Part shown: piece after piece, positions 32,277 through 44,607 of the stretch
Layout: every line of letters begins with the position of its first letter
How positions within the stretch are numbered: the first letter of the stretch is position 1
Source of the DNA: Eledone cirrhosa
Taxonomy: Eukaryota
Length of the DNA stretch: 64,000 nucleotides
Direction: 5' to 3'
NCBI GenBank assembly: GCA_964016885.1
Contig: OZ024749.1
Coordinates: forward strand, 49,476,001 to 49,540,000
Made by a program: the position numbers and the translations under genes
The notes under the pieces: model-generated
Databases searched by the model: none
What the model was told of the DNA's origin: nothing
Seen by the model: the letters and a program-made list of their open reading frames with translations, nothing else

Positions 32277-32992
32277 AATAGTATATACATAGTATGTGGG
32301 AGAGACGTGTGTCTCATCTGTTTGGCGGTGTTTCTTGGTGTGTGTGATTGTATATATTTATCATACAGACATTATAAATAATAAACACATAACTGATACC
32401 AGTCTTAAATGTTTAATTAAATTCTCATAGATATTGTTAAGTTAGGCAGAAGAGCGAAACGGCAGATTACATTTCTCAGTTCGATAAACCCCGAACTTTC
32501 CATTCAAATGTATGAAATGATCTGTAATATATGTTTCATTCAAGCGTTAATAGGAAAATATATATAACGTAAAGGAATCGCTATGAATTAGTAAGAATAT
32601 TTGAGTAAGATATAGAAAGGTAGTCAAAGCGCTTCTCATTGTCATGATGACTAGATCGATTTTTATGATACTATAACAACACAGTATAATTTAATAATCG
32701 TCGCTTATAAGTCGGACAGTGATAAAATATGAAGTTTTGCTTCAAGAGATCATCTATTCAAAAGAACGATTCATTCTTCCATGGCCATCACGGCGGGGAT
32801 TGCACAATCATTTGGCGGCGTAGTTAAAATGTTGGAAGGATTATAGACAAGGGTTGCACGTCACATTATTTATATATACGCTTATATTTGCATATCGAGT
32901 GGGTTAATCGGCCGGGTGCACCCGGCCGATTAACCCACTCGATATGCAACTTGGGCTACTCAGCCGTTAATATGCATAAGGTAAGTATATAC

Positions 32993-33079
32993 GTTCAACA
33001 ATCTGGCAGGAAGGTATACGTTGCTGACGATAGTTAACAAGCTTGAAACTAGTAGAGCGTTCCTTTGTCAGTGTTGAAC
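32993..33079 (+). ncRNA. Type I hammerhead ribozyme, unit 1 (mismatch next to the cleavage site)
   Basis: ACGTTG-CTGACGA(33024-33030)-T-AGT-TAACAA-GCT-T-GAAA(33045-33048)-CTAG-TA/GAGCGT. GUA site after 33054. Distal stem I GTTCAACA:TGTTGAAC. Confidence 0.75.
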
Positions 33080-33420
33080 AAACGAGCAACGGTGGTTGCT
33101 AGACACTACGGCTTAATACGGGATGTTTATTTACAAACACACCGAGCATTATAATAAATATTCGGTGAATCCATACGTGCATATATATATGTGTGCATGT
33201 ATGTATATATATATATATATATACATACTACTGTACGTCGGTATACATATATGTATGTACGTGTACATACTTATATTTAAGTAACAGTCGTACTAAGACT
33301 GGGAAATGAAATATCGTTTCATTTTTTCCGTTTATCGTTTTCGGTGCACCCGGCCGATTAACCCACTCGATATGCAAATTGGGCTACTCAGCCGTTAATA
33401 TGCATAAGGTAAGTATATAC

Positions 33421-33507
33421 GTTCAACAATCTGGCAGGAAGGTATACGTTGCTGACGATAGCTAACAAGCTTGAAACTAGTACAGCGTTCCTTTGTCAGT
33501 GTTGAAC
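33421..33507 (+). ncRNA. Type I hammerhead ribozyme, unit 2 (intact)
   Basis: ACGTTG-CTGACGA(33452-33458)-T-AGC-TAACAA-GCT-T-GAAA(33473-33476)-CTAG-TA/CAGCGT. GUA site after 33482. Long stem I with an internal loop and palindromic stem III ACUAGU. Confidence 0.88.
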
Positions 33508-33755
33508 AAACGAGCAACGGTGGTTGCTAGACACTACGGCTTAATACGGGATGTTTGTTTACAAACACACCGAGCATTATAATAAATATTGGGTGAATCC
33601 ATACGTGCATATATATATGTGTGCATGTATGTATATATATATATATATGCATACTACTGTACGTCGGTATACATATATGTATGTACGTGTACATACTTAT
33701 ATTTAAGTAACAGCCGTACTAAGAGTGGGAAATGAAATATCGTTTCATTTTTTCC

Positions 33756-33833
<78 letters not shown>

Positions 33834-35202: not shown

Positions 35203-35254
35203 ACCAGTACGAGCTGAAGATTCTCTAAGGTGAAATAATTGTTCTCGATATGGT
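35203..35254 (+). ncRNA. Minimal type I hammerhead ribozyme in the 3' pseudo-LTR of the Penelope-like remnant
   Basis: ACCA-GTA-CGAG-CTGAAGA(35214-35220)-T-TCT-CTA-AGG-T-GAAA(35232-35235)-TAATTG-TT/CTCG-ATA-TGGT. GUU site after 35243. Confidence 0.75.
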
Positions 35255-38170: not shown

Positions 38171-38490
38171 AGAGGAAACATAATAGCACCACTGACGATG
38201 TTGCAGATGTGCAACGAAAGAACGTTGTTAGACTATATATATGTGTTTTTGTCTATATTATATCTGTATTTTTGACCGTTAGTCAGTCAATAATAAGATT
38301 GAGGACCGAATACATTTAAATTAACCGATATAAAAGACACAGATGCGAAAACCCACCAAACAGTGAGTGTGTTCTGTTATTAATTCTGGCAATATTATTA
38401 TACACAAATATGACCCTCCCCAAGTATAACAATAGTTGTTTCGACACACGATTTCATGTAAAAAACCTCGCAAAACAAATCCATCGCCGT
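38169..38490 (+). mobile_element. TA-embedded element with a degenerate HHR-like motif
   Basis: CTGACGA(38192-38198)-T-GTTGCA-GATG-TGCAAC-GAAA(38216-38219), with poor stems I and III. Segment 38378-38434 recurs at 41651-41972. Confidence 0.5.
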
Positions 38491-43869: not shown

Positions 43870-43874
<5 letters not shown>

Positions 43875-43970
43875 AGTATGTGTGTATACGTACATACATA
43901 TATGTATATATATATATATATGTGTGTATACGTACATACATATATGTATACAGACGTACAGTAGCATGCA

Positions 43971-44018
<48 letters not shown>

Positions 44019-44391
44019 TACATACAGGTACACATACATATATGCACGTATCAGTTTAGCGGACGCTTATTATAACGCCGCTTTGTCCGTTTGTAAACAA
44101 ACTGAACAGCCTGAATTTGTATGCCGTACGGTGTTAAGGCAACCACGTTACCTTTTTGTTCGAACGTTCAACTATCTGGCAGATGGGTATACGGTGCTGA
44201 TGATAGCTAACAAGCTTGAAACTAGTACATCGTTCCTGTGTCAGTGTTGAACAAAAAGGTGACGTGGTTGCCTTAACACCGTACGGCATAAAAATTCAGG
44301 CTGTTCAGTTTGTTTACAAACGAACAAAGCGGCGTTATAATAAGCGTCCGCTAAACTGATACGTGCATATATGTATATGTACCTGTATGTA

Positions 44392-44467
<76 letters not shown>

Positions 44468-44575
44468 TGCTACTGTACGTCTGTATACATATATGTATGT
44501 ACGTATACACACATACTTACATTTAAGTAAGTGCCGTACTAAGAGTGAGAAATGAAATTTCGTTTTCATTTTATT
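43870..44575 (+). mobile_element. Diverged single-unit copy of the 33-kb retrozyme-like element with a ~280-bp inverted duplication
   Basis: 44164-44575 aligns to ~33419-33750. 43870-44161 is the reverse complement of 44249-44522. Confidence 0.85.
44166..44252 (+). ncRNA. Type I hammerhead ribozyme, copy 3
   Basis: ACGGTG-CTGATGA(44197-44203)-T-AGC-TAACAA-GCT-T-GAAA-CTAG-TA/CATCGT. GUA site after 44227. Confidence 0.88.
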
Positions 44576-44607
44576 TCAACTATATATATATACATATATA
44601 TATACGT

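What the first reader, a model, noticed from the sequence alone, without database searches (positions are those of the whole stretch)
43870..44575. Third family copy: compensatory change in the ribozyme, which sits exactly in the loop of a 280-bp inverted duplication
Seen: stem I is ACGUUG:CAGCGU at 33.4 kb but ACGGUG:CAUCGU here (U.G swapped to G.U). The variable core position N7 changes C to U, while the other core bases and stems II/III are identical, even though downstream sequence has diverged strongly. The inverted arm begins at the base of stem I. Inference: selection on RNA structure, and a fold-back triggered at the ribozyme hairpin. This is the best internal evidence that the HHR was functional during family spread.
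Basis: partly seen in the sequence, partly recalled or inferred. Interest (0 to 1): 0.75.

Follow-up and report, generated by a model that had tools for sequence, protein, structure and literature searches.

The report
Retrozyme copy with Penelope-type insertion
This is one of more than 27,000 copies of a short non-coding jumping repeat that carries a predicted self-cutting RNA (hammerhead) motif; the motif's key bases stay unchanged across the repeat's lineages, but the mirror-image layout is this repeat's usual way of landing, likely made by a Penelope-type retrotransposon enzyme, and is not triggered by the ribozyme.

Summary
43870-44581 is one insertion of a 420-490-nt hammerhead-bearing repeat (non-LTR retrozyme; 27,422 core matches genome-wide). 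Head-to-head arms are the family norm (73 of 116 insertions). In 45 of 47, one arm ends at a long and one at a short 3' site 59 nt apart, in (TA)n; a coding Penelope-like element of this genome has two such ends. Junctions scatter evenly over the unit; only this copy of 61 brackets the ribozyme, 8 nt out of register. A non-ribozyme control site has more junctions (21 vs 8; another 0). 17 of 45 insertions cannot come from a fold-back. The G.U/U.G swap is one subfamily-level event, probably G.U to U.G, not significant as covariation. Selection is still supported: 0 of 33 core and paired sites differ among six subfamilies versus 70 of 323 flank sites (p=0.0005), while individual copies mutate there at flank rates. 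Cleavage and expression are untested. The scan found this family and layout before on other DNA of this genome.

The parts
43870..44161 (-). Inverted arm: unit positions 434 to 181, starting at the family's 'short' 3' end, abutting (TA)n
44159..44161 (.). Head-to-head junction, 3-nt microhomology TTC, 8 nt out of register with the hairpin base
44159..44581 (+). Forward arm: unit positions 91 to 493, 5'-truncated (lacks unit 1-90 with the octamer-like ATGCAAAT at 41-48), ending at the 'long' 3' end
44166..44252 (+). Extended stem I hairpin enclosing the hammerhead (three further helices)
44191..44233 (+). Type I hammerhead: stem I 6 bp with G.U at 44194/44230; core CUGAUGA 44197-44203; U.U at 10.1/11.1; 4-bp stem II; GAA; palindromic helix III ACUAGU 44221-44226; predicted cut after A 44227
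   Evidence: cleavage predicted, not tested
44523..44581 (+). 59-nt 'tail' present on one arm only, then (TA)n
32886..33761 (+). Sister-subfamily insertion: short inverted piece at a palindromic junction, then two 426-428-nt units with hammerhead cores at 33024 and 33452 (U.G form)

Best explanation
This is a 5'-truncated, probably dead copy of a non-coding, hammerhead-bearing tandem repeat (an animal non-LTR retrozyme) whose two back-to-back arms were likely made by a Penelope-like reverse transcriptase/endonuclease priming from both ends of a cut in (TA)n and then joined at a chance microhomology. Shown in sequence: unit structure, copy number, two fixed 3' ends used one each, scattered junctions with microhomology, shared rare variants between arms, and conservation of the ribozyme between subfamilies. 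Inferred: source arrays are transcribed; tandem hammerheads pair through the palindromic helix III and cut out monomers, which may be circularised; a Penelope-like protein starts cDNA at two internal sites 59 nt apart, one from each DNA end, on the same template; the two cDNA ends anneal over 1-4 nt. Only copies with a working ribozyme become sources, so selection acts on source lineages and inserted copies decay neutrally. Here the ribozyme lies in the loop by chance of where the two arms stopped.
For: 73 of 116 complete insertions are head-to-head and none is a lone tail-to-tail pair. 45 of 47 with both ends classed have one long and one short end (binomial p 2e-11 against 0.5). Microhomology at 48 clean junctions averages 2.3 nt against 0.73 at random (p 2e-12). 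16 of 26 two-armed loci share rare variants across arms and none has arms from two subfamilies. A coding element of this genome (863-residue open frame with RT and GIY-YIG-like motifs read by eye; Pfam RVT_1 E 0.001, below cut-off) has a hammerhead after the frame and two ends about 59 nt apart in (TA)n (15 short, 10 long, 5 without anchor, of 30), and one head-to-head pair of it has one of each (L222/L224). Inverted 5'-truncated copy, one-sided tail and (TA)n bias are described Penelope-like hallmarks (PMC8557442, passages); the tail equals the gap between two RT start sites in vitro (PMC11167929). Constraint: 0/33 vs 70/323 between subfamilies, p 0.0005; private changes 8/690 vs 89/5287, p 0.42.
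Against: No coding element sharing this unit's sequence was found among the two families examined; their downstream regions match the unit only where a separate retrozyme sits in the adjoining (TA)n, and the two tails are no more alike than shuffles (p 0.35, 0.55). The catalytic fold of the monomer is 8-9 kcal/mol above the MFE. The 11 core bases alone are not significant (p 0.07); with the wobble pair included and only the slow flanks as control p is 0.10. Several subfamilies were found with core-anchored patterns, which favours core conservation. Only 21 copies were free of that bias. Eight of nine Xenopus retrozyme dimers did not cleave in vitro (bioRxiv 10.64898/2026.07.22.740005), and ribozyme mutants did not affect insertion by the anole element in vitro. 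25 of 73 head-to-head insertions had at least one end outside the two classes.
Confidence: 0.75

Rival explanations
1. One reading: one cDNA folded back at the ribozyme hairpin and copied itself, giving the inverted arm (related to the self-priming model proposed for Penelope elements).
For: Geometrically possible for this copy, since the short arm lies inside the long arm; possible for 28 of 45 insertions. 4 of 8 genome-wide junctions near the hairpin base are exactly in register at its 7-nt complement. Two junctions sit on palindromes (L041 and the 33-kb insertion). Self-priming was proposed from palindromic junctions in PMC3846280 (passages).
Against: 17 of 45 insertions have arms that each hold sequence the other lacks. 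Junction ends are uniform and unrelated to each other. The non-ribozyme 7-nt complement at 237/285 has 3 in-register junctions and 21 in the same-sized window. This copy's junction is out of register. A fold-back would also need an exact stop at the other fixed end.
Confidence: 0.08
2. The unit is a Penelope pseudo-LTR derivative copied from long linear read-through transcripts; the hammerhead fold is kept as a protein-binding or processing element and self-cleavage or a circular RNA is not needed for spread.
For: All insertion features fit a linear multimer template equally well. Cleavage was dispensable in vitro for the anole element. The monomer fold is weak.
Against: All 11 catalytic-core bases, an allowed cut triplet (GUA or GUU) and the palindrome are kept in six subfamilies up to 17% apart, and separate families keep different palindromes (ACUAGU, ACGCGU, AGUACU, ACAAUUGU), as expected for dimer cleavage.
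Confidence: 0.15
3. The conservation is an accident of shallow divergence and biased sampling; the ribozyme is a neutral relic.
For: Formal covariation is not above shuffles for pair counts; other 25-30-nt stretches of the flanks are also invariant.
Against: All seven variable sites within the 43-nt motif fall at tolerant positions (N7, H17, the 10.1/11.1 mismatch, loop II, the wobble pair). Mismatched forms of the wobble pair are about 1% of copies and scattered on the tree.
Confidence: 0.07

Closest known systems
Metazoan non-LTR retrozymes (Cervera and de la Pena 2020, PMC7229834, passages read; Li, Clavereau and Pollet 2026, bioRxiv 10.64898/2026.07.22.740005, parts 1-3 of 5 read)
   Same: Non-coding tandem units of a few hundred nt, low GC, one type I hammerhead per unit, thousands of copies. 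Helix III of one pair plus a palindromic tetraloop as in axolotl HHR_Amex1, U.U at the base of stem II as in HHR_Amex2.
   Different: Both weakening features occur in one motif. The unit (420-490 nt) carries an internal (TA)n tract. The passages read do not describe head-to-head arms or two fixed ends ('inverted' 0 times in PMC7229834). Expression, cleavage and circles are not shown here.
Endonuclease-containing Penelope-like elements and their pseudo-LTR hammerheads (PMC8557442, PMC3846280, PMC4209133, passages read; PMC11167929, parts 1-2 of 4 read)
   Same: Partial tandems, inverted 5'-truncated copy, tail on one arm, (TA)n targets, hammerhead upstream of the 3' ends.
   Different: No ORF; tail 59 nt instead of the 30-40 nt in print (though about 59 nt in a coding element of this genome); no sequence homology to the two coding families examined.

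Membership tests
Type I hammerhead ribozyme | Core CUGANGA, GAA, UH with three helices, ends in stem I | tested here: met
   (95% of cells paired over 28 pairs)
Type I hammerhead ribozyme | G10.1-C11.1 pair at base of stem II | tested here: not met
   U.U, or C.A in the oldest subfamily; U.U is reported in the active axolotl HHR_Amex2
Type I hammerhead ribozyme | Rfam family at gathering score | tested here: not met
   none at gathering; HH9 18.6 bits vs 52
Type I hammerhead ribozyme | Site-specific self-cleavage | not testable with these tools
   needs in vitro assay of a dimer
Non-LTR retrozyme | Non-coding tandem unit of a few hundred nt with one type I hammerhead per unit | tested here: met
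   family arrays of up to about 10 units; ORF scan shows only chance frames; this copy itself has a single hammerhead
Non-LTR retrozyme | Dispersed high copy number, no LTR/PBS/PPT layout | tested here: met
   ends abut (TA)n directly
Non-LTR retrozyme | Linear and circular unit-length RNA | not testable with these tools
   no RNA holder listed
Penelope-like element (mobilised by) | Inverted 5'-truncated copy and one-sided tail | tested here: met
Penelope-like element (mobilised by) | Insertion in (TA)n | tested here: met
Penelope-like element (mobilised by) | Shared pseudo-LTR sequence with a coding partner | tested here: inconclusive
   two coding families of many examined, no homology
Penelope-like element (autonomous member) | ORF with RT and GIY-YIG | tested here: not met
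   no such ORF in the unit

The most novel reading that the evidence does not exclude
Animal retrozymes are inserted by a Penelope protein that primes twice, once from each DNA end at two fixed sites on one ribozyme-processed (circular) RNA, with the arms joined by microhomology; the ribozyme is under purifying selection in source lineages. That would rule out self-priming fold-back as the origin of Penelope-type inversions and show that cleavage matters in vivo although it was dispensable in vitro.
Probability: 0.45. Interest if true: 0.6.

Novelty: new member of a known kind. Interest (0 to 1): 0.36.

Why it matters
The locus itself is an ordinary copy. The family gives countable genomic evidence on two open points: how Penelope-type inverted insertions form (two primings with microhomology joining rather than fold-back), and whether the hammerheads of retrozymes are needed for spread (constraint between subfamilies, none within copies). 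It also names exact sites (unit 434, 493 and the GUA cut) for an in vitro test.

Tried and rejected
Fold-back at the ribozyme: rejected. The wobble swap as stand-alone proof: rejected; one event, pair-count covariation not above shuffles (R-scape was not run). An amplified mismatch intermediate: U.U 210 and G.G 66 matches against 27,422 by a slightly shorter pattern; 24 such loci were fetched, 21 anchors entered the tree, and they are scattered, many beside normally paired sister units; two U.U copies branch just outside the U.G clade, a weak hint of a U.U step. MicroRNA precursor hits (MIR5998, mir-208) only reflect the long hairpin. Sequencing runs: no RNA holder listed; contigs of three other organisms gave 2, 0 and 2 laid records, too few to use. 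Coding partner: two Penelope-like families examined, none shares the unit. Literature searches listed no paper on head-to-head retrozyme insertions or on this family; the library lacks most subscription papers, and supplements of the papers were not read. The newt satellite 2 promoter paper was not found; that parallel is recalled.

Full report
Observation. The motif at 44191-44233 is a type I hammerhead: stem I ACGGUG:CAUCGU, core CUGAUGA, U.U at 10.1/11.1, a 4-bp stem II, GAA, palindromic helix III ACUAGU and a predicted cut after GUA. The 33.0 and 33.4 kb copies have ACGUUG:CAGCGU and C at N7. Stem I extends by three helices to a hairpin at 44166-44252 (z -2.8). The left arm 43870-44161 mirrors 44249-44522. 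Rfam finds nothing at gathering score and HH9 weakly.

What it is. The window lies in a 3.0-Gb genome; earlier AI notes call it a cephalopod, which I did not check. The exact 31-nt core occurs 13,460 times, and 27,422 times with stem II free. The best-scoring copies are identical or nearly so over 211 nt, so the subfamily is young. The unit is about 490 nt (this subfamily) or 426 nt (33-kb subfamily), non-coding, with an internal (TA)n tract and an octamer-like ATGCAAAT upstream of the ribozyme. This copy lacks unit 1-90 and has one ribozyme, so it is probably a dead end (inference).

Insertion architecture. I segmented loci L001-L118 and the two window stretches against the two units. After removing four duplicates, seven loci chosen for their junction and five clusters cut by a locus end, 73 of 116 insertions are head-to-head, 41 single-orientation and 2 complex. 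Ends fall at two sites, unit 493 (long) and about 434 (short), against (TA)n. Of 73, 48 had both ends classed; with one internal duplicate removed, 45 of 47 have one of each. This copy follows the rule. These are the described marks of Penelope-like elements (PMC8557442 passages), and the tail has been tied to two internal RT start sites (PMC11167929). A coding element in this genome, with an 863-residue frame, has a hammerhead after the frame and two ends about 59 nt apart (15 short, 10 long, 5 without anchor, of 30). Its placement among Penelope-like elements rests on motifs read by eye and a sub-threshold Pfam RT hit. It shares no sequence with the unit.

Is the inversion triggered at the ribozyme? 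No. Of 75 junctions not selected for position, 14 touching the (TA)n tract were dropped. The other 61 are uniform over the unit (KS p 0.47, 0.34); 8 of 122 ends lie near the hairpin base against 8.7 expected, and only this copy has both ends there. Microhomology is enriched (mean 2.3 vs 0.73 nt at 48 clean junctions; 13 have inserted bases). Genome-wide, equal-sized pattern windows hold 8 junctions at the hairpin base (4 in register), 0 at one control complement and 21 at another. The in-register four leave room for a small effect of the 7-nt complement, but the control has three of the same kind. This copy's junction is 8 nt out of register. In 17 of 45 insertions neither arm is contained in the other, which a fold-back of one cDNA cannot give. 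Arms share rare variants in 16 of 26 two-armed loci and never belong to different subfamilies, so one template or source serves both arms; this does not separate a circle from a linear multimer.

Is the compensatory change evidence of selection? It is real but single. 232 monomer stretches gave six subfamilies with at least three loci each, up to 17% apart. Four have G.U and two sister subfamilies U.G; A-U occurs in a few older copies. On the tree G.U is spread over the deep lineages and U.G forms one clade (support 95/84, midpoint root only), so the change was probably G.U to U.G, opposite to the finding. On 59 distinct copies, pairs with two-sided change number 3 against 3.5 in shuffles; the cell counts and score that exceed shuffles reflect shared descent. 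Mismatched forms are about 1% of copies and scattered.

The better evidence is the pattern between subfamilies. None of 33 core, Watson-Crick and palindrome sites differs, against 70 of 323 flank sites (p 0.0005; p 0.006 against the slower flanks; p 0.014 and 0.10 when the wobble pair is counted as constrained; core alone p 0.07). Private changes in 21 copies collected without the core motif hit those sites at 8/690 against 89/5287 (p 0.42). The seven variable sites in the 43-nt motif are N7, H17 (A or U), the 10.1/11.1 mismatch (U.U or C.A), one loop II base and the wobble pair. Lineage changes in the outer helices keep pairing (G.U/A-U twice, C-G/U.G once) except one pair that goes A-U, A.G, U.G. 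Separate hammerhead families in the same loci keep U.U and different helix III palindromes, the design described for dimer-dependent metazoan hammerheads (PMC4209133 passages). Caveat: some subfamilies were found with core-anchored patterns, and treating the wobble pair as tolerant is partly after the fact.

Mechanism, shown and inferred. Shown: unit, ends, junction statistics, constraint. Inferred: transcription, dimer cleavage, circularisation, Penelope-type double priming and microhomology joining. Against it: the monomer's catalytic fold is 8-9 kcal/mol above the MFE, no partner was identified, most Xenopus retrozyme dimers did not cleave in vitro, and cleavage was dispensable for the anole element in vitro.

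Verdict. A new family of a known kind (non-LTR retrozyme with Penelope-type insertion marks). The locus-specific claim, a ribozyme-triggered fold-back, is refuted; the selection claim holds on other evidence. Earlier notes of this scan describe the same family and two-end rule elsewhere in this genome; I reached and tested these independently before reading them, except the shared-variant test, which they prompted. My searches listed no paper with this architecture for retrozymes; supplements were not read.

Noticed in passing
window 35205-35245 (+): Hammerhead of another family: CGAG stem I, CUGAAGA, U.U at stem II base, helix III related to the palindrome ACAAUUGU seen in L109 and L027.
   Followed up: partly
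window 38186-38240 (+): Minimal hammerhead with long stem II, the same design as the one after the 863-residue Penelope-like frame; probably a Penelope pseudo-LTR fragment.
   Followed up: partly
L035 4834-5500: 310-nt tandem with a hammerhead of the same design: U.U, 4-bp stem II, palindrome ACGCGU, GUA, and a G.U at the third pair of stem I as in this family.
   Followed up: partly
L166 about 1506 (+); L167: L166 looks like a chimera of two subfamilies with its crossover inside the ribozyme (between unit 126 and 162, which contains the cut site); L167 has G.G in one arm and U.U in the other. Ligation at the cut or template switching in the identical stretch are both possible.
   Followed up: no
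L173-L202; G000: A second very young coding family with frames up to about 820 residues, GIY-YIG-like C-terminus (Pfam E 0.003, below cut-off) and many head-to-head pairs; no shared hammerhead within 900 nt after the frame.
   Followed up: partly
unit 41-48; window 33372: Octamer-like ATGCAAAT about 110 nt upstream of the cut in both units; a small-nuclear-RNA-type promoter as in newt satellite 2 is a recalled parallel, untested.
   Followed up: no
L003, L005, L027, L034, L046, L048, L059: Abundant repeat with CAGAAGA...GAAA, a hammerhead-like string with an altered core; not examined.
   Followed up: no
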